Source of the DNA: Nemertoderma westbladi
Taxonomy: Eukaryota; Animalia; Xenacoelomorpha
Direction of reading: 5' to 3'
Length of the DNA: 64,000 bases
Assembly (NCBI GenBank): GCA_032718475.1
Contig: JAUCBJ010003650.1
Span: forward strand, 62,001 to 126,000
The notes under the pieces are model-generated. The model worked only from the letters and a program-made list of their open reading frames with translations. It was not told the DNA's origin and ran no database searches. Position numbers and translations under genes: made by a program. Shown here one piece after another: positions 2,659 to 56,578 of this stretch (positions within the stretch are counted from its first letter, which is position 1; each line of letters opens with the position of its first letter).

Positions 2659-2663
2659 CTAAC

Positions 2664-2812
2664 CTTCTCACAAAGTAAGAATATCTCAGCATTACCGCTC
2701 ACCGGGCTTTCTGATTTATTGAGACGGACTATTTTCAAAGGGTTGGAAATACTTGACTTCGCATCGTATATTGGGTGGGAGTAGATGGGAGGGACTGGTA
2801 CAGCAAACTCAC
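2664..2812 (-). CDS. NFKB: NF-kB coding exon 2 (RHD linker and start of IPT/dimerisation domain); gene continues beyond the left window edge
   Basis: 149 nt between acceptor TTGTAG| (2813) and donor |GTTAGT (2663). Joins exon 1 in phase to give DPTT-G-EFAVPVPPIYSHPIYDAKSSISNPLKIVRLNKSESPVSGNAEIFLLCEK, colinear with p50 [54 protein letters not shown]. Confidence 0.92.
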
Positions 2813-5800
2813 CTACAATAGATAAAGTTAAAGTATATTGGGTGGGAGTAGATGGGAGGGACTGGTACAGCAAACTCACCTACAATAGATAAAGTTAAAG
2901 TATATTGGGTAGGAGTAGATGGGTGGGTCTGGTACAGCAAACTCACCTACAATAGATAAAGTTAAAGTAAATTGGGTGGGAGTAGATGGGAGGGACTGGT
3001 ACAGCAAACTCACCTACAATAGATAAAGTTAAAGTATATTGGGTAGGAGTATATGGGAGGGACTGGTACAGCAAACTCACCTACAATAGATAAAGTTAAA
3101 GTTATTGGGTAGGAGTAGATGGGAGGGACTGGTACAGCAAACTCACCTACAAAAGGGAGATAAAGTTAAAGCATATTGGGTAGGAGTAGATGGGAGGGAC
3201 TGGTACAGCAAACTCACCTACAATAGATAAAGTTAAAGTATATTGGGTAGGAGTAGATGGGAGGGACTGGTACAGCAAACTCACCTACAATAGATAAAGT
3301 TAAAGTATATTGGGTAGGAGTAGATGGGAGGGACTGGTACAGCAAACTCACCTACAATATATAAAGTTAAATTATATTGGGTGGGAGTAGATGGGAGGGA
3401 CTGGTACAGCAAACTCACCTACAATAGGGAGATAAAGTTTAAGTATATTGGGTAGGAGTAGATGGGAGGGACTGGTACAGCAAACTCACCTACAATATAT
3501 AAAGTTAAATTATATTGGGTGGGAGTAGATGGGAGGGACTGGTACAGCAAACTCACCTACAATAGGGAGATAAAGTTAAAGTATATTGGGTAGGAGTAGA
3601 TGGGAGGGACTGGTACAGCAAACTCACCTACAATAGATAAAGTTAAAGTATATTGGGTAGGAGTAGATGGGAGGGACTGGTACAGCAAACTCACCTACAA
3701 TAGGGAGATAACAGATAAAGTTAAAGTATATTGGGTAGGAGTAGATGGGAGGGACTGGTACAGCAAACTCACCTACAATAGATAAAGTTAAAGTATATTG
3801 GGTAGGAGTAGATGGGAGGGACTGGTACAGCAAACTCACCTACAATAGGGAGATAACAGATAAAGTTAAAGTATATTGGGTAGGAGTAGATGGGAGGGAC
3901 TGGTACAGCAAACTCACCTACAATAGGGAGATAAAGTTAAAGTATATTGGGTAGGAGTAGATGGGAGGGACTGGTACAGCAAACTCACCTACAATATATA
4001 AAGTTAAATTATATTGGGTGGGAGTAGATGGGAGGGACTGGTACAGCAAACTCACCTACAATAGATAAAGTTAAAGTATATTGGGTAGGAGTAGATGGGA
4101 GGGACTGGTACAGCAAACTCACCTACAATAGGGAGATAAAGTTAAAGTATATTGGGTAGGAGTAGATGGGAGGGACTGGTACAGCAAACTCACCTACAAT
4201 AGATAAAGTTAAAGTATATTGGGTAGGAGTAGATGGGTGGGACTGGTACAGCAAACTCACCTACAATAGATAAAGTTAAAGTATATTGGGTAGGAGTAGA
4301 TGGGAGGGACTGGTACAGCAAACTCACCTACAATAGATAAAGTTAAAGTATATTGGGTAGGAGTAGATGGGAGGGACTGGTACAGCAAACTCACCTACAA
4401 TAGGGAGATAACAGATAAAGTTAAAGTATATTGGGTAGGAGTAGATGGGAGGGACTGGTACAGCAAACTCACCTACAATAGGGAGATAACAGATAAAGTT
4501 AAAGTATATTGGGTAGGAGTAGATGGGAGGGACTGGTACAGCAAACTCACCTACAATAGGGAGATAAAGTTAAAGTATATTGGGTGGGAGTAGATGGGAG
4601 GGACTGGTACAGCAAACTCACCTACAATAGATAAAGTTAAAGTATATTGGGTAGGAGTAGATGGGAGGGACTGGTACAGCAAACTCACCTACAATAGGGA
4701 GATAACAGATAAAGTTAAAGTATATTGGGTAGGAGTAGATGGGAGGGACTGGTACAGCAAACTCACCTACAATAGGGAGATAAAGTTAAAGTATATTGGG
4801 TAGGAGTAGATGGGTGGGACTGGTACAGCAAACTCACCTACAATAGGGAGATAAAGTTAAAGTATATTGGGTAGGAGTAGATGGGAGGGACTGGTACAGC
4901 AAACTCACCTACAATAGATAAAGTTAAAGTATATTGGGTAGGAGTAGATGGGAGGGACTGGTACAGCAAACTCACCTACAATAGGGAGATAAAGTTAAAG
5001 TATATTGGGTAGGAGTAGATGGGTGGGACTGGTACAGCAAACTCACCTACAATAGGGAGATAAAGTTAAAGTATATTGGGTAGGAGTAGATGGGAGGGAC
5101 TGGTACAGCAAACTCACCTACAATATATAAAGTTAAATTATATTGGGTGGGAGTAGATGGGAGGGACTGGTACAGCAAACTCACCTACAATAGATAAAGT
5201 TAAAGTATATTGGGTAGGAGTAGATGGGAGGGACTGGTACAGCAAACTCACCTACAATAGGGAGATAAAGTTAAAGTATATTGGGTAGGAGTAGATGGGT
5301 GGGACTGGTACAGCAAACTCACCTACAATAGGGAGATAAAGTTAAAGTATATTGGGTAGGAGTAGATGGGAGGGACTGGTACAGCAAACTCACCTACAAT
5401 ATATAAAGTTAAATTATATTGGGTGGGAGTAGATGGGAGGGACTGGTACAGCAAACTCACCTACAATAGATAAAGTTAAAGTATATTGGGTAGGAGTAGA
5501 TGGGAGGGACTGGTACAGCAAACTCACCTACAATAGATAAAGTTAAAGTATATTGGGTAGGAGTAGATGGGAGGGACTGGTACAGCAAACTCACCTACAA
5601 TAGGGAGATAAAGTTAAAGTATATTGGGTAGGAGTAGATGGGAGGGACTGGTACAGCAAACTCACCTACAATATATAAAGTTAAATTATATTGGGTGGGA
5701 GTAGATGGGAGGGACTGGTACAGCAAACTCACCTACAATAGATAAAGTTAAAGTATATTGTGTGGGAGTAGATGGGAGGGACTGGTACAGCAAACTCACC

Positions 5801-8800
5801 TACAATAGATAAAGTTAAAGTATATTGGGTAGGAGTAGATGGGAGGGACTGGTACAGCAAACTCACCTACAATAGATAAAGTTTAAAGTATATTGGGTGG
5901 GAGTAGATGGGAGGGACTGGTACAGCAAACTCACCTACAATAGATAAAGTTAAAGTATATTGGGTAGGAGTAGATGGGAGGGACTGGTACAGCAAACTCA
6001 CCTACAATAGATAAAGTTAAAGTATATTGGGTAGGAGTAGATGGGAGGGACTGGTACAGCAAACTCACCTACAATAGATAAAGTTAAAGTATATTGGGTA
6101 GGAGTAGATGGGAGGGACTGGTACAGCAAACTCACCTACAATAGATAAAGTTAAAGTATATTGGGTAGGAGTAGATGGGAGGGACTGGTACAGCAAACTC
6201 ACCTACAATAGGGAGATAAAGTTAAAGTATATTGGGTAGGAGTAGATGGGAGGGACTGGTACAGCAAACTCACCTACAATAGATAAAGTTAAATTATATT
6301 GGGTGGGAGTAGATGGGAGGGACTGGTACAGCAAACTCACCTACAATAGATAAAGTTAAAGTATATTGGGTAGGAGTAGATGGGAGGGACTGGTACAGCA
6401 AACTCACCTACAATAGATAAAGTTAAAGTATATTGGGTAGGAGTAGATGGGAGGGACTGGTACAGCAAACTCACCTACAATAGGGAGATAAAGTTAAAGT
6501 ATATTGGGTAGGAGTAGATGGGAGGGACTGGTACAGCAAACTCACCTACAATATATAAAGTTAAATTATATTGGGTGGGAGTAGATGGGAGGGACTGGTA
6601 CAGCAAACTCACCTACAATATATAAAGTTAAATTATATTGGGTGGGAGTAGATGGGAGGGACTGGTACAGCAAACTCACCTACAATAGATAAAGTTAAAG
6701 TATATTGGGTAGGAGTAGATGGGAGGGACTGGTACAGCAAACTCACCTACAATATATAAAGTTAAATTATATTGGGTGGGAGTAGATGGGAGGGACTGGT
6801 ACAGCAAACTCACCTACAATAGGGAGATAAAGTTAAAGTATATTGGGTAGGAGTAGATGGGAGGGACTGGTACAGCAAACTCACCTACAATAGATAAAGT
6901 TAAAGTATATTGGGTAGGAGTAGATGGGAGGGACTGGTACAGCAAACTCACCTACAATAGATAAAGTTAAAGTATATTGGGTAGGAGTAGATGGGAGGGA
7001 CTGGTACAGCAAACTCACCTACAATAGGGAGATAAAGTTAAACTATATTGGGTAGGAGTAGATGGGTGGGACTGGTACAGCAAACTCACCTACAATAGGG
7101 AGATAAAGTTAAAGTATATTGGGTAGGAGTAGATGGGAGGGACTGGTACAGCAAACTCACCTACAATATATAAAGTTAAATTATATTGGGTGGGAGTAGA
7201 TGGGAGGGACTGGTACAGCAAACTCACCTACAATAGATAAAGTTAAAGTATATTGGGTAGGAGTAGATGGGAGGGACTGGTACAGCAAACTCACCTACAA
7301 TAGGGAGATAAAGTTAAAGTATATTGGGTAGGAGTAGATGGGAGGGACTGGTACAGCAAACTCACCTACAATAGATAAAGTTAAAGTATATTGGGTAGGA
7401 GTAGATGGGAGGGACTGGTACAGCAAACTCACCTACAATAGGGAGATAAAGTTAAAGTATATTGGGTAGGAGTAGATGGGTGGGACTGGTACAGCAAACT
7501 CACCTACAATAGGGAGATAAAGTTAAAGTATATTGGGTAGGAGTAGATGGGAGGGACTGGTACAGCAAACTCACCTACAATATATAAAGTTAAATTATAT
7601 TGGGTGGGAGTAGATGGGAGGGACTGGTACAGCAAACTCACCTACAATAGATAAAGTTAAAGTATATTGGGTAGGAGTAGATGGGAGGGACTGGTACAGC
7701 AAACTCACCTACAATAGGGAGATAAAGTTAAAGTATATTGGGTAGGAGTAGATGGGTGGGACTGGTACAGCAAACTCACCTACAATAGGGAGATAAAGTT
7801 AAAGTATATTGGGTAGGAGTAGATGGGAGGGACTGGTACAGCAAACTCACCTACAATATATAAAGTTAAATTATATTGGGTGGGAGTAGATGGGTGGGAC
7901 TGGTACAGCAAACTCACCTACAATAGATAAAGTTAAAGTATATTGGGTAGGAGTAGATGGGAGGGACTGGTACAGCAAACTCACCTACAATAGGGAGATA
8001 AAGTTAAAGTATATTGGGTAGGAGTAGATGGGAGGGACTGGTACAGCAAACTCACCTACAATAGATAAAGTTAAAGTATATTGGGTAGGAGTAGATGGGA
8101 GGGACTGGTACAGCAAACTCACCTACAATAGATAAAGTTAAAGTATATTGGGTAGGAGTAGATGGGTGGGACTGGTACAGCAAACTCACCTACAATAGAT
8201 ATTAAGTTAAAGTATATTGGGTAGGAGTAGATGGGAGGGACTGGTACAGCAAACTCACCTACAATAGATAAAGTTAAAGTATATTGGGTAGGAGTAGATG
8301 GGTGGGACTGGTACAGCAAACTCACCTACAATAGATATTAAGTTAAAGTATATTGGGTAGGAGTAGATGGGTGGGACTGGTACAGCAAACTCACCTACAA
8401 TAGATATTAAGTTAAAGTATATTGGGTAGGAGTAGATGGGAGGGACTGGTACAGCAAACTCACCTACAATAGATAAAGTTAAAGTATATTGGGTAGGAGT
8501 AGATGGGAGGGACTGGTACAGCAAACTCACCTACAATAGATAAAGTTAAAGTATATTGGGTAGGAGTAGATGGGTGGGACTGGTACAGCAAACTCACCTA
8601 CAATAGATAAAGTTAAAGTATATTGGGTAGGAGTAGATGGGAGGGACTGGTACAGCAAACTCACCTACAATAGATAAAGTTAAACTATATTGGGTAGGAG
8701 TAGATGGGAGGGACTGGTACAGCAAACTAACCTACAATAGATAAAGTTAAAGTATATTGGGTAGGAGTAGATGGGAGGGACTGGTACAGCAAACTCACCT

Positions 8801-11800
8801 ACAATAGATAAAGTTAAACTATATTGGGTAGGAGTAGATGGGAGGGACTGGTACAGCAAACTAACCTACAATAGATATTAAGTTAAAGTATATTGGGTAG
8901 GAGTAGATGGGAGGGACTGGTACAGCAAACTCACCTACAATAGATAAAGTTAAAGTATATTGGGTAGGAGTAGATGGGAGGGACTGGTACAGCAAACTCA
9001 CCTACAATAGGGAGATAAAGTTAAAGTATATTGGGTAGGAGTAGATGGGTGGGACTGGTACAGCAAACTCACCTACAAAAGGGAGATAAAGTTAAAGTAT
9101 ATTGGGTAGGAGTAGATGGGAGGGACTGGTACAGCAAACTCACCTACAATAGGGAGATAAAGTTAAAGTATATTGGGTAGGAGTAGATGGGAGGGACTGG
9201 TACAGCAAACTCACCTACAATAGATAAAGTTAAACTATATTGGGTAGGAGTAGATGGGAGGGACTGGTACAGCAAACTCACCTACAATAGATAAAGTTAA
9301 AGTATATTGGGTAGGAGTAGATGGGAGGGACTGGTACAGCAAACTCACCTACAATAGATAAAGTTAAAGTATATTGGGTAGGAGTAAATGGGAGGGACTG
9401 GTACAGCAAACTCACCTACAATATATAAAGTTAAAGTATATTGGGTAGGATGTAGATGGGAGGGACTGGTACAGCAAACTCACCTACAATAGATAAAGTT
9501 AAAGTATATTGGGTAGGAGTAGATGGGAGGGACTGGTACAGCAAACTCACCTACAATAGATAAAGTTAAAGTATATTGGGTAGGAGTAGATGGGAGGGAC
9601 TGGTACAGCAAACTCACCTACAATAGGGAGATAAAGTTAAAGTATATTGGGTAGGAGTAGATGGGAGGGACTGGTACAGCAAACTCACCTACAATATATA
9701 AAGTTAAAGTATATTGGGTAGGAGTAGATGGGAGGGACTGGTACAGCAAACTCACCTACAATATATAAAGTTAAAGTATATTGGGTAGGATGTAGATGGG
9801 AGGGACTGGTACAGCAAACTCACCTACAATAGATAAAGTTTAAGTATATTGGGTAGGAGTAGATGGGAGGGACTGGTACAGCAAACTCACTTACAATAGA
9901 TAAAGTTAAAGTATATTGGGTAGGAGTAGATGGGAGGGACTGGTACAGCAAACTCACCTACAATATATAAAGTTAAAGTATATTGGGTAGGAGTAGATGG
10001 GAGGGACTGGTACAGCAAACTCACCTACAATAGATAAAGTTAAAGTATATTGGGTAGGATGTAGATGGGAGGGACTGGTACAGCAAACTCACCTACAATA
10101 GATAAAGTTTAAGTATATTGGGTAGGAGTAGATGGGAGGGACTGGTACAGCAAACTCACTTACAATAGATAAAGTTAAAGTATATTGGGTAGGAGTAGAT
10201 GGGAGGGACTGGTACAGCAAACTCACCTACAATAGATAAAGTTAAAGTATATTGGGTAGGAGTAGATGGGTGGGACTGGTACAGCAAACTCACCTACAAT
10301 AGATAAAGTTAAAGTATATTGGGTAGGAGTAGATGGGAGGGACTGGTACAGCAAACTCACTTACAATAGATAAAGTTAAAGTATATTGGGTAGGAGTAGA
10401 TGGGAGGGACTGGTACAGCAAACTCACTTACAATAGATAAAGTTAAAGTATATTGGGTAGGAGTAGATGGGAGGGACTGGTACAGCAAACTCACCTACAA
10501 TAGATAAAGTTAAAGTATATTGGGTAGGAGTAGATGGGAGGGACTGGTACAGCAAACTCACCTACAATAGGGAGATAAAGTTAAAGTATATTGGGTAGGA
10601 GTAGATGGGAGGGACTGGTACAGCAAACTCACCTACAATATATAAAGTTAAAGTATATTGGGTAGGAGTAGATGGGAGGGACTGGTACAGCAAACTCACC
10701 TACAATATATAAAGTTAAAGTATATTGGGTAGGATGTAGATGGGAGGGACTGGTACAGCAAACTCACCTACAATATATAAAGTTAAAGTATATTGGGTAG
10801 GAGTAGATGGGAGGGACTGGTACAGCAAACTCACCTACAATAGATAAAGTTTAAGTATATTGGGTAGGAGTAGATGGGAGGGACTGGTACAGCAAACTCA
10901 CTTACAATAGATAAAGTTAAAGTATATTGGGTAGGAGTAGATGGGAGGGACTGGTACAGCAAACTCACTTACAATAGATAAAGTTAAAGTATATTGGGTA
11001 GGAGTAGATGGGAGGGACTGGTACAGCAAACTCACTTACAATAGATAAAGTTAAAGTATATTGGGTAGGAGTAGATGGGAGGGACTGGTACAGCAAACTC
11101 ACCTACAATAGATAAAGTTAAAGTATATTGGGTAGGAGTAGATGGGAGGGACTGGTACAGCAAACTCACCTACAATAGGGAGATAAAGTTAAAGTATATT
11201 GGGTAGGAGTAGATGGGAGGGACTGGTACAGCAAACTCACCTACAATATATAAAGTTAAAGTATATTGGGTAGGAGTAGATGGGAGGGACTGGTACAGCA
11301 AACTCACCTACAATATATAAAGTTAAAGTATATTGGGTAGGATGTAGATGGGAGGGACTGGTACAGCAAACTCACCTACAATATATAAAGTTAAAGTATA
11401 TTGGGTAGGAGTAGATGGGAGGGACTGGTACAGCAAACTCACTTACAATAGATAAAGTTAAAGTATATTGGGTAGGAGTAGATGGGAGGGACTGGTACAG
11501 CAAACTCACCTACAATATATAAAGTTAAAGTATATTGGGTAGGAGTAGATGGGAGGGACTGGTACAGCAAACTCACCTACAATAGATAAAGTTAAAGTAT
11601 ATTGGGTAGGAGTAGATGGGAGGGACTGGTACAGCAAACTCACCTACAATAGATAAAGTTAAAGTATATTGGGTAGGAGTAGATGGGAGGGACTGGTACA
11701 GCAAACTCACCTACAATAGATAAAGTTAAAGTATATTGGGTAGGATGTAGATGGGAGGGACTGGTACAGCAAACTCACCTACAATATATAAAGTTAAAGT

Positions 11801-14800
11801 ATATTGGGTAGGAGTAGATGGGAGGGACTGGTACAGCAAACTCACTTACAATAGATAAAGTTAAAGTATATTGGGTAGGAGTAGATGGGAGGGACTGGTA
11901 CAGCAAACTCACCTACAATAGATAAAGTTAAAGTATATTGGGTAGGAGTAGATGGGAGGGACTGGTACAGCAAACTCACCTACAATAGATAAAGTTAAAG
12001 TATATTGGGTAGGATGTAGATGGGAGGGACTGGTACAGCAAACTCACCTACAATAGATAAAGTTTAAGTATATTGGGTAGGAGTAGATGGGAGGGACTGG
12101 TACAGCAAACTCACCTACAATAGATAAAGTTAAAGTATATTGGGTAGGAGTAGATGGGTGGGACTGGTACAGCAAACTCACCTACAATAGGGAGATAAAG
12201 TTAAAGTATATTGGGTGGGAGTAGATGGGAGGGACTGGTACAGCAAACTCACCTACAATAGATAAAGTTAAAGTATATTGGGTAGGAGTAGATGGGAGGG
12301 ACTGGTACAGCAAACTCACCTACAATAGGGAGATAAAGTTAAAGTATATTGGGTGGGAGTAGATGGGAGGGACTGGTACAGCAAACTCACCTACAATAGA
12401 TAAAGTTAAACTATATTGGGTAGGAGTAGATGGGAGGGACTGGTACAGCAAACTCACCTACAATAGATAAAGTTAAAGTATATTGGGTAGGAGTAGATGG
12501 GAGGGACTGGTACAGCAAACTCACCTACAATAGGGAGATAAAGTTAAAGTATATTGGGTGGGAGTAGATGGGAGGGACTGGTACAGCAAACTCACCTACA
12601 ATAGATAAAGTTAAAGTATATTGGGTAGGAGTAGATGGGAGGGACTGGTACAGCAAACTCACCTACAATAGGGAGATAAAGTTAAAGTATATTGGGTGGG
12701 AGTAGATGGGAGGGACTGGTACAGCAAACTCACCTACAATAGATAAAGTTAAAGTATATTGGGTAGGAGTAGATGGGAGGGACTGGTACAGCAAACTCAC
12801 CTACAATAGATAAAGTTAAAGTATATTGGGTAGGAGTAGATGGGAGGGACTGGTACAGCAAACTCACCTACAATAGATAAAGTTAAAGTATATTGGGTAG
12901 GAGTAGATGGGAGGGACTGGTACAGCAAACTCACCTACAATAGATAAAGTTAAAGTATATTGGGTAGGAGTAGATGGGAGGGACTGGTACAGCAAACTCA
13001 CCTACAATAGATAAAGTTAAAGTATATTGGGTAGGAGTAGATGGGAGGGACTGGTACAGCAAACTCACCTACAATAGATAAAGTTAAAGTATATTGGGTA
13101 GGAGTAGATGGGAGGGACTGGTACAGCAAACTCACCTACAATAGATAAAGTTAAAGTATATTGGGTAGGAGTAGATGGGAGGGACTGGTACAGCAAACTC
13201 ACCTACAATAGATAAAGTTAAAGTATATTGGGTAGGAGTAGATGGGAGGGACTGGTACAGCAAACTCACCTACAATAGATAAAGTTAAAGTATATTGGGT
13301 AGGAGTAGATGGGAGGGACTGGTACAGCAAACTCACCTACAATAGATAAAGTTAAAGTATATTGGGTAGGAGTAGATGGGAGGGACTGGTACAGCAAACT
13401 CACCTACAATAGATAAAGTTAAAGTATATTGGGTAGGAGTAGATGGGAGGGACTGGTACAGCAAACTCACCTACAATAGATAAAGTTAAAGTATATTGGG
13501 TAGGAGTAGATGGGAGGGACTGGTACAGCAAACTCACCTACAATAGATAAAGTTAAAGTATATTGGGTAGGAGTAGATGGGAGGGACTGGTACAGCAAAC
13601 TCACCTACAATAGATAAAGTTAAAGTATATTGGGTAGGAGTAGATGGGAGGGACTGGTACAGCAAACTCACCTACAATAGATAAAGTTAAAGTATATTGG
13701 GTAGGAGTAGATGGGAGGGACTGGTACAGCAAACTCACCTACAATAGATAAAGTTAAAGTATATTGGGTAGGAGTAGATGGGAGGGACTGGTACAGCAAA
13801 CTCACCTACAATAGATAAAGTTAAAGTATATTGGGTAGGAGTAGATGGGAGGGACTGGTACAGCAAACTCACCTACAATAGATAAAGTTAAAGTATATTG
13901 GGTAGGAGTAGATGGGAGGGACTGGTACAGCAAACTCACCTACAATAGATAAAGTTAAAGTATATTGGGTAGGAGTAGATGGGAGGGACTGGTACAGCAA
14001 ACTCACCTACAATAGATAAAGTTAAAGTATATTGGGTAGGAGTAGATGGGAGGGACTGGTACAGCAAACTCACCTACAATAGATAAAGTTAAAGTATATT
14101 GGGTAGGAGTAGATGGGAGGGACTGGTACAGCAAACTCACCTACAATAGATAAAGTTAAAGTATATTGGGTAGGAGTAGATGGGAGGGACTGGTACAGCA
14201 AACTCACCTACAATAGATAAAGTTAAAGTATATTGGGTAGGAGTAGATGGGAGGGACTGGTACAGCAAACTCACCTACAATAGATAAAGTTAAAGTATAT
14301 TGGGTAGGAGTAGATGGGAGGGACTGGTACAGCAAACTCACCTACAATAGATAAAGTTAAAGTATATTGGGTAGGAGTAGATGGGAGGGACTGGTACAGC
14401 AAACTCACCTACAATAGATAAAGTTAAAGTATATTGGGTAGGAGTAGATGGGAGGGACTGGTACAGCAAACTCACCTACAATAGATAAAGTTAAAGTATA
14501 TTGGGTAGGAGTAGATGGGAGGGACTGGTACAGCAAACTCACCTACAATAGATAAAGTTAAAGTATATTGGGTAGGAGTAGATGGGAGGGACTGGTACAG
14601 CAAACTCACCTACAATAGATAAAGTTAAAGTATATTGGGTAGGAGTAGATGGGAGGGACTGGTACAGCAAACTCACCTACAATAGATAAAGTTAAAGTAT
14701 ATTGGGTAGGAGTAGATGGGAGGGACTGGTACAGCAAACTCACCTACAATAGATAAAGTTAAAGTATATTGGGTAGGAGTAGATGGGAGGGACTGGTACA

Positions 14801-44800: not shown

Positions 44801-47800
44801 GGTACAGCAAACTCACCTACAATAGGAGATAAAGTTAAAGTATATTGGGTAGGAGTAGATGGGAGGGACTGGTACAGCAAACTCACCTACAATAGATAAA
44901 GTTAAAGTATATTGGGTAGGAGTAGATGGGAGGGACTGGTACAGCAAACTCACCTACAATAGATAAAGTTAAAGTATATTGGGTAGGAGTAGATGGGAGG
45001 GACTGGTACAGCAAACTCACCTACAATAGATAAAGTTAAAGTATATTGGGTAGGAGTAGATGGGAGGGACTGGTACAGCAAACTCACCTACAATAGATAA
45101 AGTTAAAGTATATTGGGTAGGAGTAGATGGGAGGGACTGGTACAGCAAACTCACCTACAATAGATAAAGTTAAAGTATATTGGGTAGGAGTAGATGGGAG
45201 GGACTGGTACAGCAAACTCACCTACAATAGATAAAGTTAAAGTATATTGGGTAGGAGTAGATGGGAGGGACTGGTACAGCAAACTCACCTACAATAGATA
45301 AAGTTAAAGTATATTGGGTAGGAGTAGATGGGAGGGACTGGTACAGCAAACTCACCTACAATAGGGAGATAAAGTTAAAGTATATTGGGTAGGAGTAGAT
45401 GGGAGGGACTGGTACAGCAAACTCACCTACAATAGATAAAGTTAAAGTATATTGGGTAGGAGTAGATGGGAGGGACTGGTACAGCAAACTCACCTACAAT
45501 AGATAAAGTTAAAGTATATTGGGTAGGAGTAGATGGGAGGGACTGGTACAGCAAACTCACCTACAATAGATAAAGTTAAAGTATATTGGGTAGGAGTAGA
45601 TGGGAGGGACTGGTACAGCAAACTCACCTACAATAGATAAAGTTAAAGTATATTGGGTGGGAGTAGATGGGTGGGACTGGTACAGCAAACTCACCTACAA
45701 TAGATAAAGTTAAAGTATATTGGGTAGGAGTAGATGGGAGGGACTGGTACAGCAAACTCACCTACAATAGATAAAGTTAAAGTACATTGGGTAGGAGTAG
45801 ATGGGAGGGACTGGTACAGCAAACTCACCTACAATAGGGAGATAAAGTTAAAGTATATTGGGTAGGAGTAGATGGGAGGGACTGGTACAGCAAACTCACC
45901 TACAATAGATAAAGTTAAAGTACATTGGGTAGGAGTTGATGGGAGGGACTGGTACAGCAAACTCACCTACAATAGATAAAGTTAAAGTATATTGGGTAGG
46001 AGTAGATGGGATGGACTGGTACAGCAAACTCACCTACAATAGATAAAGTTAAAGTACATTGGGTAGGAGTAGATGGGAGGGACTGGTACAGCAAACTCAC
46101 CTACAATAGGGAGATAAAGTTAAAGTATATTGGGTAGAAGTAGATGGGAGGGACTGGTACAGCAAACTCACCTACAATAGATAAAGTTTAAAGTATATTG
46201 GGTAGAAGTAGATGGGAGGGACTGGTACAGCAAACTCACCTACAATAGGGAGATAAAGTTAAAGTATATTGGGTAGAAGTAGATGGGAGGGACTGGTACA
46301 GCAAACTCACCTACAATAGGGAGATAAAGTTAAAGTATATTGGGTCGGAGTAGATGGGAGGGACTGGTACAGCAAACTCACCTACAATAGATAAAGTTAA
46401 AGTATATTGGGTGGGAGTAGATGGGAGGGACTGGTACAGCAAACTCACCTACAATAGGGAGATAAAGTTAAAGTATATTGGGTAGGAGTAGATGGGAGGG
46501 ACTGGTACAGCAAACTCACCTACAATAGATAAAGTTTAAAGTATATTGGGTGGGAGTAGATGGGAGGGACTGGTACAGCAAACTCACCTACAATAGATAA
46601 AGTTAAAGTATATTGGGTAGGAGTAGATGGGAGGGACTGGTACAGCAAACTCACCTACAATAGGGAGATAAAGTTAAAGTATATTGGGTAGGAGTAGATG
46701 GGAGGGACTGGTACAGCAAACTCACCTACAATAGATAAAGTTAAAGTATATTGGGTAGGAGTACATGGGAGGGACTGGTACAGCAAACTCACCTACAATA
46801 GATAAAGTTAAATTATATTGGGTGGGAGTAGATGGGAGGGACTGGTACAGCAAACTCACCTACAATAGATAAAGTTAAATTATATTGGGTAGGAGTAGAT
46901 GGGAGGGACTGGTACAGCAAACTCACCTACAATAGATAAAGTTAAAGTACATTGGGTAGGAGTAGATGGGAGGGACTGGTACAGCAAACTCACCTACAAT
47001 AGGGAGATAAAGTTAAAGTATATTGGGTAGGAGTATATGGGATGGACTGGTACAGCAAACTCACCTACAATAGATAAAGTTAAAGTACATTGGGTAGGAG
47101 TAGATGGGAGGGACTGGTACAGCAAACTCACCTACAATAGGGAGATAAAGTTAAAGTATATTGGGTAGAAGTAGATGGGAGGGACTGGTACAGCAAACTC
47201 ACCTACAATAGATAAAGTTTAAAGTATATTGGGTAGAAGTAGATGGGAGGGACTGGTACAGCAAACTCACCTACAATAGGGAGATAAAGTTAAAGTATAT
47301 TGGGTAGAAGTAGATGGGAGGGACTGGTACAGCAAACTCACCTACAATAGGGAGATAAAGTTAAAGTATATTGGGTCGGAGTAGATGGGAGGGACTGGTA
47401 CAGCAAACTCACCTACAATAGATAAAGTTAAAGTATATTGGGTGGGAGTAGATGGGAGGGACTGGTACAGCAAACTCACCTACAATAGGGAGATAAAGTT
47501 AAAGTATATTGGGTAGGAGTAGATGGGAAGGACTGGTACAGCAAACTCACCTACAATAGATAAAGTTTAAAGTATATTGGGTGGGAGTAGATGGGAGGGA
47601 CTGGTACAGCAAACTCACCTACAATAGATAAAGTTAAAGTATATTGGGTAGGAGTAGATGGGAGGGACTGGTACAGCAAACTCACCTACAATAGGGAGAT
47701 AAAGTTAAAGTATATTGGGTAGGAGTAGATGGGAGGGACTGGTACAGCAAACTCACCTACAATAGATAAAGTTAAAGTATATTGGGTAGGAGTACATGGG

Positions 47801-50800
47801 AGGGACTGGTACAGCAAACTCACCTACAATAGATAAAGTTAAATTATATTGGGTGGGAGTAGATGGGAGGGACTGGTACAGCAAACTCACCTACAATAGA
47901 TAAAGTTAAATTATATTGGGTAGGAGTAGATGGGAGGGACTGGTACAGCAAACTCACCTACAATAGATAAAGTTAAAGTATATTGGGTAGGAGTAGATGG
48001 GTGGGACTGGTACAGCAAACTCACCTACAATAGGGAGATAAAGTTAAAGTATATTGGGTAGGAGTAGATGGGAGGGACTGGTACAGCAAACTCACCTACA
48101 ATAGATAAAGTTAAAGTATATTGGGTAGGAGTAGATGGGAGGGACGGTACAGCAAACTCACCTACAATAGGGAGATAAAGTTAAAGTATATTGGGTAGGA
48201 GTAGATGGGAGGGACTGGTACAGCAAACTCACCTACAATAGATAAATTTAAAGTATATTGGGTAGGAGTAGATGAGAGGGACTGGTACAGCAAACTCACC
48301 TACAATAGATAAAGTTAAAGTATATTGGGTAGGAGTAGATGGGAGGGACTGGTACAGCAAACTCACCTACAATAGATAAAGTTAAAGTATATTGGGTAGG
48401 AGTAGATGGGAGGGACTGGTACAGCAAACTCACCTACAATAGATAAAGTTAAAGTATATTGGGTAGGAGTAGATGGGAGGGACTGGTACAGCAAACTCAC
48501 CTACAATAGATAAAGTTAAAGTATATTGGGTAGGAGTAGATGGGAGGGACTGGTACAGCAAACTCACCTACAATAGATAAAGTTAAAGTATATTGGGTAG
48601 GAGTAGATGGGAGGGACTGGTACAGCAAACTCACCTACAATAGGGAGATAAAGTTAAAGTATATTGGGTAGGAGTAGATGGGAGGGACTGGTACAGCAAA
48701 CTCACCTACAATAGATAAAGTTAAAGTATATTGGGTAGGAGTAGATGGGAGGGACTGGTACAGCAAACTCACCTACAATAGATAAAGTTAAAGTATATTG
48801 GGTAGGAGTAGATGGGAGGGACTGGTACAGCAAACTCACCTACAATAGATAAAGTTAAATTATATTGGGTAGGAGTAGATGGGAGGGACTGGTACAGCAA
48901 ACTCACCTACAATAGATAAAGTTAAAGTATATTGGGTGGGAGTAGATGGGTGGGACTGGTACAGCAAACTCACCTACAATAGATAAAGTTAAAGTATATT
49001 GGGTAGGAGTAGATGGGAGGGACTGGTACAGCAAACTCACCTACAATAGATAAAGTTAAAGTACATTGGGTAGGAGTAGATGGGAGGGACTGGTACAGCA
49101 AACTCACCTACAATAGGGAGATAAAGTTAAAGTATATTGGGTAGGAGTAGATGGGAGGGACTGGTACAGCAAACTCACCTACAATAGATAAAGTTAAAGT
49201 ACATTGGGTAGGAGTAGATGGGAGGGACTGGTACAGCAAACTCACCTACAATAGGGAGATAAAGTTAAAGTATATTGGGTAGGAGTAGATGGGTGGGACT
49301 GGTACAGCAAACTCACCTACAATAGATAAAGTTAAAGTATATTGGGTAGGAGTAGATGGGAGGGACTGGTACAGCAAACTCACCTACAATAGATAAAGTT
49401 AAAGTATATTGGGTAGGAGTAGATGGGTGGGACTGGTACAGCAAACTCACCTACAATAGATAAAGTTAAAGTATATTGGGTGGGAGTAGATGGTTGGGAC
49501 TGGTACAGCAAACTCACCTACAATAGATAAAGTTAAAGTATATTGGGTAGGAGTAGATGGGAGGGACTGGTACAGCAAACTCACCTACAATAGGGAGATA
49601 AAGTTAAAGTATATTGGGTAGGAGTAGATGGGAGGGACTGGTACAGCAAACTCACCTACAATAGATAAAGTTAAAGTATATTGGGTAGGAGTAGATGGGA
49701 GGGACTGGTACAGCAAACTCACCTACAATAGGGAGATAAAGTTAAAGTATATTGGGTAGGAGTAGATGGGAGGGACTGGTACAGCAAACTCACCTACAAT
49801 AGGGAGATAAAGTTAAAGTATATTGGGTAGGAGTAGATGGGTAGGGACTGGTACAGCAAACTCACCTACAATAGGGAGATAAAGTTAAAGTATATTGGGT
49901 AGGAGTAGATGGGAGGGACTGGTACAGCAAACTCACCTACAATAGATAAAGTTAAAGTATATTGGGTAGGAGTAGATGGGAGGGACTGGTACAGCAAACT
50001 CACCTACAATAGATAAAGTTAAAGTATATTGGGTAGGAGTAGATGGGAGGGACTGGTACAGCAAACTCACCTACAATAGATAAAGTTAAAGTATATTGGG
50101 TAGGAGTAGATGGGAGGGAATGGTACAGCAAACTCACCTACAATAGGGAGATAAAGTTAAAGTATATTGGGTAGGAGTAGATGGGAGGGACTGGTACAGC
50201 AAACTCACCTACAATAGATAAAGTTAAAGTATATTGGGTCGGAGTAGATGGGAGGGACTGGTACAGCAAACTCACCTACAATAGGGAGATAAAGTTAAAG
50301 TATATTGGGTAGGAGTAGATGGGAGGGACTGGTACAGCAAACTCACCTACAATAGATAAAGTTAAAGTATATTGGGTGGGAGTAGATGGGAGGGACTGGT
50401 ACAGCAAACTCACCTACAATAGATAAAGTTAAAGTATATTGGGTGGGAGTAGATGGGAGGGACTGGTACAGCAAACTCACCTACAATAGATAAAGTTAAA
50501 GTATATTGGGTAGGAGTAGATGGGAGGGACTGGTACAGCAAACTCACCTACAATAGATAAAGTTAAAGTATATTGGGTGGGAGTAGATGGGAGGGACTGG
50601 TACAGCAAACTCACCTACAATAGATAAAGTTAAAGTATATTGGGTAGGAGTAGATGGGAGGGACTGGTACAGCAAACTCACCTACAATAGATAAAGTTAA
50701 AGTATATTGGGTAGGAGTAGATGGGTGGGACTGGTACAGCAAACTCACCTACAATAGATAAAGTTAAAGTATATTGGGTAGGAGTAGATGGGAGGGACTG

Positions 50801-53800
50801 GTACAGCAAACTCACCTACAATAGATAAAGTTAAAGTATATTGGGTGGGAGTAGATGGGAGGGACTGGTACAGCAAACTCACCTACAATAGATAAAGTTA
50901 AAGTATATTGGGTAGGAGTAGATGGGAGGGACTGGTACAGCAAACTCACCTACAATAGATAAAGTTAAAGTATATTGGGTAGGAGTAGATGGGAGGGACT
51001 GGTACAGCAAACTCACCTACAATAGATAAAGTTAAAGTATATTGGGTAGGAGTAGATGGGAGGGACTGGTACAGCAAACTCACCTACAATAGATAAAGTT
51101 AAAGTATATTGGGTAGGAGTAGATGGGAGGGACTGGTACAGCAAACTCACCTACAATAGATAAAGTTAAAGTATATTGGGTAGGAGTAGATGGGAGGGAC
51201 TGGTACAGCAAACTCACCTACAATAGATAAAGTTAAAGTATATTGGGTGGGAGTAGATGGGAGGGACTGGTACAGCAAACTCACCTACAATAGATAAAGT
51301 TAAAGTATATTGGGTGGGAGTAGATGGGAGGGACTGGTACAGCAAACTCACCTACAATAGATAAAGTTAAAGTATATTGGGTAGGAGTAGATGGGAGGGA
51401 CTGGTACAGCAAACTCACCTACAATAGATAAAGTTAAAGTATATTGGGTAGGAGTAGATGGGAGGGACTGGTACAGCAAACTCACCTACAATAGATAAAG
51501 TTAAAGTATATTGGGTAGGAGTAGATGGGAGGGACTGGTACAGCAAACTCACCTACAATAGATAAAGTTAAAGTATATTGGGTGGGAGTAGATGGGAGGG
51601 ACTGGTACAGCAAACTCACCTACAATAGATAAAGTTAAAGTATATTGGGTAGGAGTAGATGGGAGGGACTGGTACAGCAAACTCACCTACAATAGATAAA
51701 GTTAAAGTATATTGGGTAGGAGTAGATGGGAGGGACTGGTACAGCAAACTCACCTACAATAGATAAAGTTAAAGTATATTGGGTAGGAGTAGATGGGAGG
51801 GACTGGTACAGCAAACTCACCTACAATAGATAAAGTTAAAGTATATTGGGTAGGAGTAGATGGGTGGGACTGGTACAGCAAACTCACCTACAATAGATAA
51901 AGTTAAAGTATATTGGGTAGGAGTAGATGGGAGGGACTGGTACAGCAAACTCACCTACAATAGATAAAGTTAAAGTATATTGGGTAGGAGTAGATGGGAG
52001 GGACTGGTACAGCAAACTCACCTACAATAGGGAGATAAAGTTAAAGTATATTGGGTGGGAGTAGATGGGAGGGACTGGTACAGCAAACTCACCTACAATA
52101 GATAAAGTTAAAGTATATTGGGTGGGAGTAGATGGGAGGGACTGGTACAGCAAACTCACCTACAATAGATAAAGTTAAAGTATATTGGGTAGGAGTAGAT
52201 GGGAGGGACTGGTACAGCAAACTCACCTACAATAGATAAAGTTAAAGTATATTGGGTAGGAGTAGATGGGAGGGACTGGTACAGCAAACTCACCTACAAT
52301 AGATAAAGTTAAAGTATATTGGGTAGGAGTAGATGGGAGGGACTGGTACAGCAAACTCACCTACAATAGATAAAGTTAAAGTATATTGGGTAGGAGTAGA
52401 TGGGAGGGACTGGTACAGCAAACTCACCTACAATAGATAAAGTTAAAGTATATTGGGTAGGAGTAGATGGGAGGGACTGGTACAGCAAACTCACCTACAA
52501 TAGATAAAGTTAAAGTATATTGGGTAGGAGTAGATGGGAGGGACTGGTACAGCAAACTCACCTACAATAGATAAAGTTAAAGTATATTGGGTAGGAGTAG
52601 ATGGGAGGGACTGGTACAGCAAACTCACCTACAATAGATAAAGTTAAAGTATATTGGGTGGGAGTAGGTGGGAGGGACTGGTTCAGCAAACTCACCTACA
52701 ATAGATAAAGTTAAAGTATATTGGGTAGGAGTAGATGGGAGGGACTGGTACAGCAAACTCACCTACAATAGATAAAGTTAAAGTATATTGGATGGGAGTA
52801 GGTGGGAGGGACTGGTTCAGCAAACTCACCTACAATAGATAAAGTTAAAGTATATTGGGTAGGAGTAGATGGGTGGGACTGGTACAGCAAACTCACCTAC
52901 AATAGGGAGATAAAGTTAAAGTATATTGGGTAGGAGTAGATGGGAGGGACTGGTACAGCAAACTCACCTACAATAGATAAAGTTAAATTATATTGGGTAG
53001 GAGTAGATGGGAGGGACTGGTACAGCAAACTCACCTACAATAGATAAAGTTAAAGTATATTGGGTAGGAGTAGATGGGAGGGACTGGTACAGCAAACTCA
53101 CCTACAATAGATAAAGTTAAAGTATATTGGGTAGGAGTAGATGGGTGGGACTGGTACAGCAAACTCACCTACAATAGGGAGATAAAGTTAAAGTATATTG
53201 GGTAGAAGTAGATGGGAGGGACTGGTACAGCAAACTCACCTACAATAGATAAAGTTAAATTATATTGGGTAGGAGTAGATGGGAGGGACTGGTACAGCAA
53301 ACTCACCTACAATAGGGAGATAAAGTTAAAGTATATTGGGTAGAAGTAGATGGGAGGGACTGGTACAGCAAACTCACCTACAATAGATAAAGTTAAATTA
53401 TATTGGGTAGGAGTAGATGGGAGGGACTGGTACAGCAAACTCACCTACAATAGATAAAGTTAAAGTATATTGGGTAGGAGTAGATGGGAGGGACTGGTAC
53501 AGCAAACTCACCTACAATAGATAAAGTTAAAGTATATTGGGTAGGAGTAGATGGGTGGGACTGGTACAGCAAACTCACCTACAATAGGGAGATAAAGTTA
53601 AAGTATATTGGGTAGAAGTAGATGGGAGGGACTGGTACAGCAAACTCACCTACAATAGATAAAGTTAAATTATATTGGGTAGGAGTAGATGGGAGGGACT
53701 GCTACAGCAAACTCACCTACAATAGATAAAGTTAAAGTATATTGGGTAGGAGTAGATGGGAGGGACTGGTACAGCAAACTCACTTACAATAGGGAGATAA

Positions 53801-55773
53801 AGTTAAAGTATATTGGGTAGGAGTAGATGGGAGGGACTGGTACAGCAAACTCACCTACAATAGATAAAGTTAAATTATATTGGGTAGGAGTAGATGGGAG
53901 GGACTGGTACAGCAAACTCACCTACAATAGATAAAGTTAAAGTATATTGGGTAGGAGTAGATTGGAGGGACTGGTACAGCAAACTCACCTACAATAGGGA
54001 GATAAAGTTAAAGTATATTGGGTAGGAGTAGATGGGAGGGACTGGTACAGCAAACTCACCTACAATAGATAAAGTTAAAGTATATTGGGTGGGAGTAGAT
54101 GGGAGGGACTGGTACAGCAAACTCACCTACAATAGATAAAGTTAAAGTATATTGGGTGGGAGTAGATGGGAGGGACTGGTACAGCAAACTCACCTACAAT
54201 AGATAAAGTTAAAGTATATTGGGTGGGAGTAGATGGGAGGGACTGGTACAGCAAACTCACCTACAATAGATAAAGTTAAAGTATATTGGGTAGAAGTAGA
54301 TGGGAGGGACTGGTACAGCAAACTCACCTACAATAGATAAAGTTAAAGTATATTGGGTGGGAGTAGATGGGAGGGACTGGTACAGCAAACTCACCTACAA
54401 TAGATAAAGTTAAATTATATTGGGTAGGAGTAGATGGGAGGGACTGGTACAGCAAACTCACCTACAATAGATAAAGTTAAAGTATATTGGGTAGGAGTAG
54501 ATGGGAGGGACTGGTACAGCAAACTCACCTACAATAGATAAAGTTAAAGTATATTGGGTAGAAGTAGATGGGAGGGACTGGTACAGCAAACTCACCTACA
54601 ATAGATAAAGTTAAAGTATATTGGGTAGGAGTAGATGGGAGGGACTGGTACAGCAAACTCACCTACAATAGGGAGATAAAGTTAAAGTATATTGGGTAGG
54701 AGTAGATGGGAGGGACTGGTACAGCAAACTCACCTACAATAGATAAAGTTAAAGTATATTGGGTAGGAGTAGATGGGAGGGACTGGTACAGCAAACTCAC
54801 CTACAATAGATAAAGTTAAATTATATTGGGTAGGAGTAGATGGGAGGGACTGGTACAGCAAACTCACCTACAATAGATAAAGTTAAAGTATATTGGGTAG
54901 GAGTAGATGGGAGGGACTGGTACAGCAAACTCACCTACAATAGATAAAGTTAAAGTATATTGGGTAGAAGTAGATGGGAGGGACTGGTACAGCAAACTCA
55001 CCTACAATAGATAAAGTTAAATTATATTGGGTAGGAGTAGATGGGAGGGACTGGTACAGCAAACTCACCTACAATAGATAAAGTTAAAGTATATTGGGTA
55101 GGAGTAGATGGGAGGGACTGGTACAGCAAACTCACCTACAATAGATAAAGTTAAAGTATATTGGGTAGGAGTAGATGGGAGGGACTGGTACAGCAAACTC
55201 ACCTACAATAGATAAAGTTAAAGTATATTGGGTAGGAGTAGATGGGAGGGACTGGTACAGCAAACTCACCTACAATAGGGAGATAAAGTTAAAGTATATT
55301 GGGTAGAAGTAGATGGGAGGGACTGGTACAGCAAACTCACCTACAATAGATAAAGTTAAATTATATTGGGTAGGAGTAGATGGGAGGGACTGGTACAGCA
55401 AACTCACCTACAATAGGGAGATAAAGTTAAAGTATATTGGGTAGGAGTAGATGGGAGGGACTGGTACAGCAAACTCACCTACAATAGATAAAGTTAAAGT
55501 ATATTGGGTAGGAGTAGATGGGAGGGACTGGTACAGCAAACTCACCTACAATAGGGAGATAAAGTTAAAGTATATTGGGTAGGAGTAGATGGGAGGGTCT
55601 GGTACAGCAAACTCACCTACAATAGGGAGATAAAGTTAAAGTACCGGGTATATTGGGTAGGAGTAGATGGGAGGGACTGGTACAGCAAACTCACCTACAA
55701 TAGATAAAGTTAAAGTATATTGGGTAGGAGTAGATGGGAGGGACTGGTACAGCAAACTCACCTACAATAGGGA
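2766..55773. repeat. Giant intronic tandem array, 67-bp unit (common 71-bp variant; rarer 64, 68, 69, 70, 78 bp), about 780 copies, derived from the intron 1/exon 2 junction
   Basis: Minus-strand consensus GTGAGTTTGCTGTACCAGTCCCTCCCATCTACTCCTACCCAATATACTTTAACTTTATC(TCCC)TATTGTAG. Period 67 measured between 2812 and 2879. The first 47 nt match the start of exon 2 except one C/T site. Copy number is estimated as ~53 kb / ~68 bp. Confidence 0.99.
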
Positions 55774-55839
55774 TTTTTTTCGCTGTTTTATATTTTTTGA
55801 AAGTTTCGTGACAGAAAACAAGTTTTACATCCATCTCAC
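55762..55839 (-). other. Unique 78-nt GT-AG intron segment (probable ancestral intron 1 of NF-kB)
   Basis: GTGAGATGG...ATCCCTATTGTAG, AT-rich. Its translation has no RHD homology. It ends at the first AG|GTGAGT junction of the array. Confidence 0.8.
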
Positions 55840-56578
55840 CTGTCGTTGGATCCCTTAGGAACGCTTGGAACTGCATCCTCACGCAGTTTAGATCCATCCT
55901 CTCACTTTCCCGCACAATTTCCTCGTCAACAGCCTCCAGTTGACATCGACTCAACTGCGCCCCGTTGCGTTCAGACCCCCCATAAATCCCGTGCCACTTC
56001 GCGCGTAACGCATCCGCCACCTCCTTCCGCTTTATATGTTTAATACCGAGTCCGCAGAAACTTGCGGATCCTGAGTTAGTCGCAACGTCCACAAAACAAA
56101 CTCCGTCCTCTACGATACAGAGTCCCGGTGACTTACTTCCTAGTAGCGTGTACGCGTGGAGTCTAGGGGGTTCATCTTTAGTTACCAAGGTAACGCCAAC
56201 CCTCGCGTCGCCAATGTGTCCGCGTAGTACGACAGTCGGGTATGTTTTGTTTTTCTTTGTAGAGGAAACGCCTTGCAGACATCCGTGTGAAGGTCCTTCG
56301 CAGTCATAACGGAATCGGAATGTAGTCTGCGGTTGTTCTAGTATCTCTAGATAGGGTTGCCGCGGTACCGGTATGTATGAGCAGCTTGCTACCGGTTCCC
56401 GCTGGGTTATTGTTTCATTGTTTACGGGTTGCTCCATGATCGGAGGCGGACCCATCTCTCCGTCGCTGTTGGGGGTTGAGTCGCCGGCCATATCCTCGAA
56501 GCAACCCGGGAAATCCGTGTCGAAGAGAATATCTAGGATAGAGGGTTGATCGGGATTCGTATTTTCGCAGTTCGCCAT
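55840..56578 (-). CDS. NFKB: NF-kB (p105/p100-like) coding exon 1: N-terminal Rel homology DNA-binding region
   Basis: The translation contains PYLEILEQP..FRFRYDCEGPSHGCLQG..KTYPTV..LVTKDEPPRLHAY..MDLNCVRMQFQAFL, matching the p50/p52 RHD (EGPSHG is NF-kB subfamily; Rel proteins have EGRSAG). The first ATG at 56578 has strong Kozak context (GAGATGG); the ORF track start at 56584 is a GTG. Homology stops at DPTT-G, where there is a donor CAG|GTGAGA (intron starts 55839, phase 1). Confidence 0.95.

What the first reader, a model, noticed from the sequence alone, without database searches (positions are those of the whole stretch)
2813..55839. About 780 back-to-back minimal introns / recursive splice sites inside an NF-kB gene
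Seen: on the gene's sense strand each 67-nt unit begins with a consensus donor GTGAGT, contains a branch-point-like TTTAAC, then an AG-free pyrimidine-rich stretch, and ends in TAG. Units join as TAG|GTGAGT. Exon 1 ends in CAG, so splicing it to any unit regenerates a perfect CAG|GTGAGT donor. Established: AG|GT ratchet points with zero-length exons drive recursive splicing in long Drosophila and vertebrate introns, but typically a handful per gene, kilobases apart. Inference: this 53-kb intron may be removed as a chain of hundreds of ~67-nt steps (or any multiples). That would make the satellite self-excising at the RNA level and able to expand without killing the gene. I know of no described case at this density.
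Basis: partly seen in the sequence, partly recalled or inferred. Interest (0 to 1): 0.95.

Follow-up and report, generated by a model that had tools for sequence, protein, structure and literature searches.

The report
Giant splice-junction satellite in NF-kB intron
One 53-kb intron of an animal NF-kB gene consists of 778 head-to-tail copies of the intron's last 20 bases plus the next exon's first 47, nearly all carrying both splice signals; correctly joined mRNA is found in two other samples, and the array is likely cut out in several jumps rather than in 780 single steps.

Summary
The array is real: 778 units, 728 with donor, branch-like motif and acceptor all intact, and it is also high-copy in a second DNA sample. 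Each unit is the last ~20 nt of the intron plus the first 47 nt of the next exon, whose codons happen to start GTGAGT. That makes it a 'mirage' boundary duplication, a known class; the signals are inherited and show no extra conservation (P=0.53). Two runs that behave as RNA hold clean exon-to-exon mRNA, so the gene is expressed, though not shown for this allele. No intermediate could be tested, since only contigs exist. A strict unit-by-unit chain would take about 31 h against 35 min of transcription at fly rates. Several in-register jumps (0.45) or one-step removal past silent decoys (0.30) are likelier. Closest known: amphioxus mirages (3-6 units in BflGb6), UBC dual-site arrays, fly ratchet points. 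The scan noted smaller boundary arrays in other genomes (up to ~175 units). New variant of a known kind: extreme size, with every unit a complete, frame-breaking mini-intron.

The parts
55840..56753 (-). First coding exon of the NF-kB/Rel gene (ATG at 56578; 739 coding nt; ends CAG, phase 1)
   Evidence: Pfam RHD_DNA_bind E=1.4e-38; p52/p100 match E=1.7e-31; covered by an X4 contig, 55835-56753
55762..55839 (-). Unique 78-nt start of the intron: native donor GTGAGA, ends in TAG with weak acceptor context; in frame and stop-free
   Evidence: skipped by the X4 joint; unspliced in the X2 DNA contig 55749-56965
2813..55761 (-). 778 tandem units (mostly 67 or 71 nt), each = first 47 nt of the downstream exon + ~20 nt acceptor end; 761 intact AG|GT joints; 98 unit types
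   Evidence: unit contigs at high depth in X1 and X2
2664..2812 (-). Real downstream exon (149 nt). It begins GTGAGT itself; 2812-2766 is the source of the unit's 5' part
   Evidence: matches RelB and p52, E 5e-8 to 1e-7; included with 0 differences in X4 and X5 contigs
2658..2663 (-). Donor of the downstream exon (GTTAGT), the weakest of the four donors by U1 pairing
   Evidence: X4 and X5 contigs leave the window here and continue in NF-kB-like frame VQK
1..1995 (.). Separate 15-nt satellite in the next intron of the same gene (five more copies at 2578-2653); context only
56754..56888 (-). Probable 135-nt GT-AG intron in the 5' UTR (tentative)
   Evidence: 14-nt loose end of one X4 contig matches 56889 onward

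Best explanation
The array is a tandem duplication of this gene's own intron-exon boundary, expanded to 778 copies, and it is likely removed from the pre-mRNA in a variable, modest number of in-register jumps rather than one unit at a time. Shown: each unit is the acceptor end of the intron plus the first 47 nt of the next exon; that exon's codons start GTGAGT, so 761 joints read acceptor-then-donor; mature mRNA joins the two real exons. Inferred: ordinary mirage decoys are probably ignored because no donor follows them, but here every decoy acceptor has strong donors 0, 67 and 134 nt downstream. The upstream exon is therefore likely spliced to an internal acceptor while the array is still being transcribed. 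That regenerates CAG|GTGAGT, which is used again; internal donor-to-acceptor cuts may also shorten the array. Every in-register path ends in the same mRNA, which would explain why the repeat could grow at little cost. A toy model gives about 8-100 steps per molecule. Inferred and least certain: the real exon escapes being skipped through its unique 102 nt, through earlier removal of the downstream introns, or through EJC protection.
For: Unit and exon identity, signal counts. Exons contiguous with p52 (2-165, then 169-216). mRNA contigs across three exons in X4 and X5 (two samples, two studies); X2, DNA of the same sample as X5, is unspliced and holds the unit at roughly 300-760 times single-copy depth. 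U1 duplex energies: regenerated donor -12.2, native -11.1, unit -10.6, downstream exon donor -6.7 kcal/mol. This fits the fly rule that the stronger ratchet donor wins over the cryptic exon's donor (PMC8605326). Folding does not single out the real acceptor: predicted AG pairing is 0.98 against 0.92-0.94 for decoys. If decoys were normal acceptors, the chance that the upstream donor is still unused after 53 kb is 5e-7 to 7e-4 at fly rates. UBC tandem sites are used stochastically in register (PMC10809524).
Against: No intermediate has been seen; only contigs exist. Known boundary repeats keep their decoys silent: lancelet mirages (PMC3087553, PMC3902484), CBS 844ins68 uses the distal site (PMC2630376), F7 pseudo-donors are silent (PMC1557585). 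The same regenerated donor forms at the final junction, is far stronger than the exon's own donor, and yet the exon is kept, so regenerated donors can be repressed here. The EJC is known to repress regenerated 5' and 3' sites (PMC8184009) and would hinder every extra step. Splice positions are no better conserved than the rest of the unit (P=0.53 and 0.33; low power). The expressed allele differs from the window at 56536, so its array length is unknown. The rates used are Drosophila's.
Confidence: 0.45

Rival explanations
1. Ordinary mirage at extreme size: the 761 decoy acceptors are silent and the intron leaves in one step, native donor to last acceptor, chosen through the real exon's unique 3' part and its commitment to the next intron.
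For: This is what the published boundary repeats do (PMC3087553, PMC3902484, PMC2630376, PMC1557585). The RNA-like contigs run unbroken into the real exon. No selection on unit signals. Every joint is predicted to be largely base-paired, though no more than shuffles (z=-0.21).
Against: Decoys match the real acceptor from about -20 to +47 and, unlike classic mirages, have downstream donors stronger than the real exon's own. They are exposed for 18-35 min before the real exon is made. I found no silencing feature.
Confidence: 0.3
2. The long allele in this window is spliced poorly or not at all (transcripts stall on internal sites, keep frame-breaking units and decay), and the mRNA seen comes from shorter alleles.
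For: The window has G at 56536 while X2 and X4 have C. Array length in X4's sample is unknown. No DNA contig ties the array to both flanks in X2's sample. Units shift frame and carry stops in all three frames within three copies.
Against: The unit is at hundreds of copies in two samples of different studies (X1 may be the window's source), one of which also yields clean mRNA (X5). Both exons are intact and differ from the expressed copy at 1 position.
Confidence: 0.17
3. One reading: the intron is removed as a chain of hundreds of single-unit (~67-nt) recursive steps.
For: 728 of 778 units are complete mini-introns. 60-70 nt is the fastest-spliced short-intron class in flies (PMC5762160). With a 15-s half-life even the jump models need about 50-100 steps.
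Against: 762 sequential steps take about 1870 min at a 1.7-min half-life and 275 min even at 15 s, against 18-35 min of transcription. 17 units lack the AG, up to 3 in a row. The first acceptor has no branch motif. No selection on signals.
Confidence: 0.05
4. The array is an assembly artefact or is grossly inflated.
For: Tandem arrays are hard to assemble; no listed contig spans it.
Against: 98 unit types in locally clustered patterns, longest identical run 36 units. Unit contigs, including the 71-nt variant, are at depth 4,000-17,000 in independent DNA run X2, against 22-34 for single-copy contigs.
Confidence: 0.03

Closest known systems
'Mirage' minisatellites of amphioxus (globin BflGb6, Adh3, troponin C, PGBD5); PMC3087553 and PMC3902484, passages read
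   Same: Tandem duplication of the 3' end of an intron plus the 5' part of the next exon; many units keep splice signals; normal mRNA is still made; local concerted evolution.
   Different: 778 units and 53 kb against 3-6 units in BflGb6. Here the exon start is itself a consensus donor, so each unit is a full GT-branch-AG mini-intron and each joint is a potential recursive site.
[quoted passage not shown]
   Same: An AGGT at every unit boundary; in-register splicing removes whole units; the paper proposes that such expansions are tolerated because they splice out.
   Different: UBC has 9 in-frame coding units (3-46 across species) and partial removal is harmless. Here units are frame-breaking, so removal must be complete, and the intron's first donor lies outside the repeat. 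Use of the sites is shown for UBC and untested here. Table S4 also lists a 31-kb, 40-nt human array with annotated introns inside it, under ENSG identifiers.
Recursive splicing ratchet points and RS-exons (Drosophila Ubx, Bx, kuz; mammalian RS-exons); PMC8605326, PMC6110457, PMC8184009, passages read
   Same: Acceptor directly followed by a donor inside a long intron; a short cryptic exon follows with a weaker donor; the real downstream exon is an expressed RS-exon by sequence.
   Different: Fly segments average 9.1 kb and the sites are conserved and proven by intermediates. Here spacing is 67 nt, the sites are repeat copies with no extra conservation, and no intermediate has been seen.
Human boundary duplications: CBS 844ins68 (PMC2630376, passage) and F7 intron 7 VNTR (PMC1557585, abstract)
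   Same: Duplicated splice junction of similar unit size; extra sites are functional in principle but normal mRNA results.
   Different: One extra or a few copies and only one kind of site repeated; here hundreds, with both kinds.
Intron gain by tandem duplication (Rogers model, ATP2A1, potato RdRp); PMC4974935, parts 1-2 of 5 read
   Same: A duplication across an intron-exon boundary inherits branch site, pyrimidine tract and acceptor, and uses a donor that was exonic.
   Different: Potato gained one new intron and one new exon from a single duplication. Here the donor sits at exon position +1, so no exonic sequence is added.

Membership tests
Mirage minisatellite (boundary-spanning tandem repeat) | Unit spans an intron-exon boundary of the host gene | tested here: met
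   Unit = ~20 nt acceptor end + 47 nt of exon 2812-2766
Mirage minisatellite (boundary-spanning tandem repeat) | Copies keep splice signals | tested here: met
   761 of 778 keep the AG; 728 of 778 keep all three signals
Mirage minisatellite (boundary-spanning tandem repeat) | Normal mRNA is still produced | tested here: met
   X4 and X5 contigs join the real exons; shown for the gene in two samples, not for this allele
Mirage minisatellite (boundary-spanning tandem repeat) | Concerted evolution within the cluster | tested here: met
   98 unit types with locally clustered variants and internal multi-unit duplications
Mirage minisatellite (boundary-spanning tandem repeat) | Length instability between alleles | not testable with these tools
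   Only contig depth is available, which is not a copy number
Recursive splice sites (ratchet points) | Acceptor directly followed by a donor inside a long intron; donor regenerated on joining to the upstream exon | tested here: met
   761 joints; regenerated donor -12.2 kcal/mol; sequence only
Recursive splice sites (ratchet points) | Short cryptic exon whose downstream donor is weaker than the regenerated donor | tested here: met
   Next donor 67 nt on, -10.6 against -12.2 kcal/mol; sequence only
Recursive splice sites (ratchet points) | Observed intermediates: ratchet junction reads, saw-tooth coverage or segment lariats | not testable with these tools
   All 8 listed runs are contigs, no raw reads
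Recursive splice sites (ratchet points) | Site conserved above its surroundings | tested here: inconclusive
   Within the array no depletion of variants at signal positions, P=0.53 and 0.33, low power; other organisms X6 and X7 gave no cover of the gene
Dual-specific-site tandem array (UBC type) | AGGT at each unit boundary | tested here: met
Dual-specific-site tandem array (UBC type) | The same site observed in RNA as both donor and acceptor | not testable with these tools
   No raw RNA reads
Dual-specific-site tandem array (UBC type) | Both intron ends lie in the repeat, so intron length is a whole number of units | tested here: not met
   The intron starts with a unique 78-nt piece; true only for 55761-2813
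Rogers-type intron gain from an exonic AGGT duplication | Duplicated segment is wholly exonic | tested here: not met
   The unit's last ~20 nt are intron-like and unlike the upstream exon's end

The most novel reading that the evidence does not exclude
A self-excising satellite: a coding gene's intron made of 778 complete, frame-breaking mini-introns that the spliceosome removes in tens to hundreds of in-register cuts per molecule, every path ending in the same mRNA, so that the DNA repeat can expand without limit inside an immune transcription factor gene. It would be the densest recursive splicing known, more than 100 times denser than in flies.
Probability: 0.3. Interest if true: 0.85.

Novelty: new variant of a known kind. 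Interest (0 to 1): 0.55.

Why it matters
The spliceosome faces 761 decoy acceptors that match the real one over about 67 nt, each with a near-consensus donor, and still delivers clean mRNA. Either outcome is informative. Multi-step removal would be recursive splicing at unprecedented density and a direct case of repeat expansion rescued at RNA level. One-step removal would show silencing of hundreds of near-perfect sites by distant exon features. It also poses the open question of how splicing stops, because the final junction regenerates the same strong donor but is not re-spliced. The 98 unit types act as natural barcodes, so long reads could place each cut.

Tried and rejected
No whole genome is held, so other introns of this organism could not be surveyed. 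The run search listed no RNA holder and no raw reads; X4 and X5 are labelled 'DNA?' and I infer RNA from exon-only cover and GT-AG joints. No unit-bearing contig lay from X4 or X5 (1 contig each), but contigs drop rare forms, so this is not used as evidence. DNA contigs over the downstream exon's unique part were not returned for X1 or X2 (a filter may hide them). X6 and X7 (other organisms) gave 1 and 0 contigs, so the ancestral intron is unknown. Idea that T at unit position 36 masks decoys in a hairpin while the real exon's C frees it: rejected, pairing does not differ. Idea that the array folds unusually: rejected, z=-0.21. Idea that the 15-nt satellite masks the real exon's start donor: predicted pairing 0.85-0.94, but at least 10 of 100 shuffles reach 0.95 and the region's z is +1.04; not supported. 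Selection on splice signals: not detected. No Rfam match in 1-4000. The homologue search with the first coding exon among longer proteins found nothing (weak). FIBP gave 314 hits, the 120 listed all 41-53% identical, so no close relative and no taxon assignment. No earlier scan note on this genome or this sequence. PMC10078293 passages held nothing on boundary arrays.
Full report
OBSERVATION. Tandem Repeats Finder gives a 67-nt array at 2766-55770 with 778.8 copies. On the minus strand I count 778 units between 55761 and 2813: 555 of 67 nt, 170 of 71 nt and 53 of other lengths. All 778 start with GT, 772 with GTGAGT; 761 end in TAG; 751 carry TTTAAC; 728 have all three. One unit has an AG between the branch motif and the last AG. 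The branch-like A sits 16 or 20 nt from the end in 741 units. All 775 GTRAG motifs of the array lie at unit starts. The flanks are two exons of an NF-kB/Rel gene. 56578-55840 matches Pfam RHD_DNA_bind (E=1.4e-38) and p52 residues 2-165; 2812-2664 matches p52 residues 169-216; joined, they are in frame.

The real downstream exon itself begins with GTGAGT, and its first 47 nt are the first 47 nt of every unit. The unit is the last ~20 nt of the intron plus the start of the exon. The donor is coding sequence (G|GT GAG TTT, Gly-Glu-Phe); the branch motif, pyrimidine tract and AG come from one real acceptor. The signals therefore need no special origin. Variants are not depleted at signal positions: 7 distinct substitutions at 11 signal positions against 7.4 expected (P=0.53), and 2 against 3.3 at the 5 core positions (P=0.33); power is low. 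Seventeen units have lost the AG, up to three in a row. The intron opens with a unique 78-nt piece that has no yTnAy motif and 41% pyrimidines before its AG, against 71% in a unit.

IS IT REAL, AND IS THE GENE ALIVE? The array holds 98 unit types in locally clustered patterns, with a longest identical run of 36 units, as expected of a satellite growing by local duplication. Eight runs were listed, all contigs; I laid six. X2, DNA from another sample and study, has an unspliced contig from 56965 through the exon and the 78-nt piece that stops 13 nt into the first unit. Its unit contigs sum to depth 10,400-17,000 over the middle of the unit against 22-34 for single-copy contigs. That is roughly 300-760-fold; the tool warns that this is not a copy number, so I take only the order of magnitude. 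X4 is labelled 'DNA?' but its long contigs cover only exons, with no cover over 57099-58085. It has one 1411-nt contig that skips the 78-nt piece at GT..AG, runs through the 47 shared nt into the real exon with no difference, and leaves at the exon's donor into sequence reading VQK, as NF-kB proteins do (the VQK comparison is recalled). X5, from the same sample as X2, has a 911-nt contig with the same two joints. I infer that both are RNA. X2 shows no such joint, so a retrocopy is unlikely. The gene thus makes clean mRNA in two samples of two studies, one of which carries the unit in hundreds of copies. Limits: contigs cannot phase across the shared 47 nt and drop rare forms; X2 and X4 have C at 56536 where the window has G, so expression of this very allele is not shown; no contig ties the array to both flanks in X2.

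MECHANISM. Shown by the sequence: any in-register donor and acceptor pair leaves a shorter array with the same junction, and retained units break the frame (stops in all three frames within three units), so removal must be complete. U1 pairing ranks the donors: regenerated -12.2, native -11.1, unit -10.6, downstream exon's own -6.7 kcal/mol (U1 motif recalled). Folding does not single out the real acceptor and the array folds no better than shuffles. Using fly rates (half-life 1.7 min for 60-70-nt introns, PMC5762160; 1.5 kb/min, PMC6110457), a toy simulation over the 762 intact acceptors gives about 1870 min for a strict nearest-site chain (275 min at a 15-s half-life) against 18-35 min of transcription. 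Jumps to a random or newest site finish in 18-47 min with 8-100 steps. If decoys worked like normal acceptors, the upstream donor would still be free after 53 kb with probability 5e-7 to 7e-4. So either the decoys are silenced or removal is multi-step. Published boundary repeats keep decoys silent, but here each decoy acceptor is followed by strong donors, the layout of a ratchet point with its cryptic exon, in which the stronger regenerated donor wins (PMC8605326). Against this: the final junction regenerates the same donor and the exon is still kept, and the EJC represses regenerated sites (PMC8184009). In flies at least one intronic ratchet point was unaffected by removing the upstream intron, and exonic elements can promote inclusion, so both behaviours can coexist. 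I put multi-jump removal at 0.45, one-step removal at 0.30, a poorly spliced long allele at 0.17, the strict chain at 0.05 and artefact at 0.03. The origin as a boundary duplication is read directly from the sequence; every statement on the route of removal is inference.

COMPARISON WITH WHAT IS KNOWN. By origin it is a mirage: amphioxus BflGb6 has 3-6 copies of an intron 3' end plus exon start and splices normally (PMC3087553, passages; PMC3902484, one passage). That lead came from an earlier scan note and I checked it in these papers. By layout it works like the dual-specific-site arrays of UBC and VCX3A, for which in-register splicing and the 'expansion rescued by splicing' model are published (PMC10809524, parts 1-4 of 7). 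I saw about 30 rows of its Table S4 (up to 15 places each of 208 'larger' and 36 'equal'); they include a 31-kb human array of 40-nt units with annotated introns inside it, so large spliced arrays exist, and the unseen rows may hold closer cases. CBS 844ins68 (passage), the F7 VNTR (abstract) and potato RdRp (parts 1-2 of 5) are small relatives. It is not shown to be a set of recursive sites: the defining intermediates could not be tested. Searches (listings only, apart from the papers named) returned no boundary array of hundreds of complete mini-introns in a coding gene; the library lacks most subscription journals and bioRxiv supplements are closed. The scan has unchecked notes on smaller boundary arrays in other genomes (about 34, 175, 7, 16 and 16 copies), so the class is recurrent and this is its largest case among those notes.

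VERDICT. A real and extreme member of a known class, with one added property: the duplicated exon start is a consensus donor, so each unit is a full, frame-breaking mini-intron. New variant of a known kind; interest 0.55.

Noticed in passing
window 1-1995 and 2578-2653: A second satellite (15 nt, 134 copies in view) fills the next intron. On the gene's sense strand it has only 4 AG and 6 GT in 1995 nt, and 1-2662 carries 102 copies of ACTCAC, the complement of the 67-nt unit's donor. On the plus strand it reads as a row of donor-like sites. Pairing to the exon-start donor was not above shuffles.
   Followed up: partly
window 58821-59840 (+): FIBP gene as one uninterrupted 339-aa ORF (Pfam E=8e-119), head to head with the NF-kB gene and covered by an X4 contig; listed homologues are at most 53% identical, so the organism has no close relative in the protein set.
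   Followed up: partly
window 55762-55839 (-): The unique 78-nt intron start is in frame and stop-free, so unspliced RNA would extend the ORF into the first unit and stop there, giving a Rel domain without its dimerisation part. It shares its last 11-12 nt with the 71-nt unit variant and has an AATATA at about the same distance from the AG as the units, a possible duplication breakpoint.
   Followed up: no
window 56754-56888 (-): Probable 135-nt GT-AG intron in the 5' UTR, from a 14-nt loose end of one X4 contig.
   Followed up: partly
window 56536: The window has G where runs X2 and X4 both have C (Leu to Val at codon 15 on the minus strand): an allele or an assembly error, and a usable marker for allele-resolved expression.
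   Followed up: no
window 2813-55761 (-): No AATAAA or ATTAAA in 53 kb of array; 764 units carry an out-of-register CAG at position 16-18 that could be used where the terminal AG is lost.
   Followed up: no
window 56939-57009: A ~70-nt element that attracts very many contigs in X2 and in X4: a dispersed high-copy repeat just upstream of the NF-kB gene.
   Followed up: no
window 60940-61083, 62763-62925, 63233-63440: Short minisatellites (19-21 nt units); the last two look like inverted relatives of each other.
   Followed up: no
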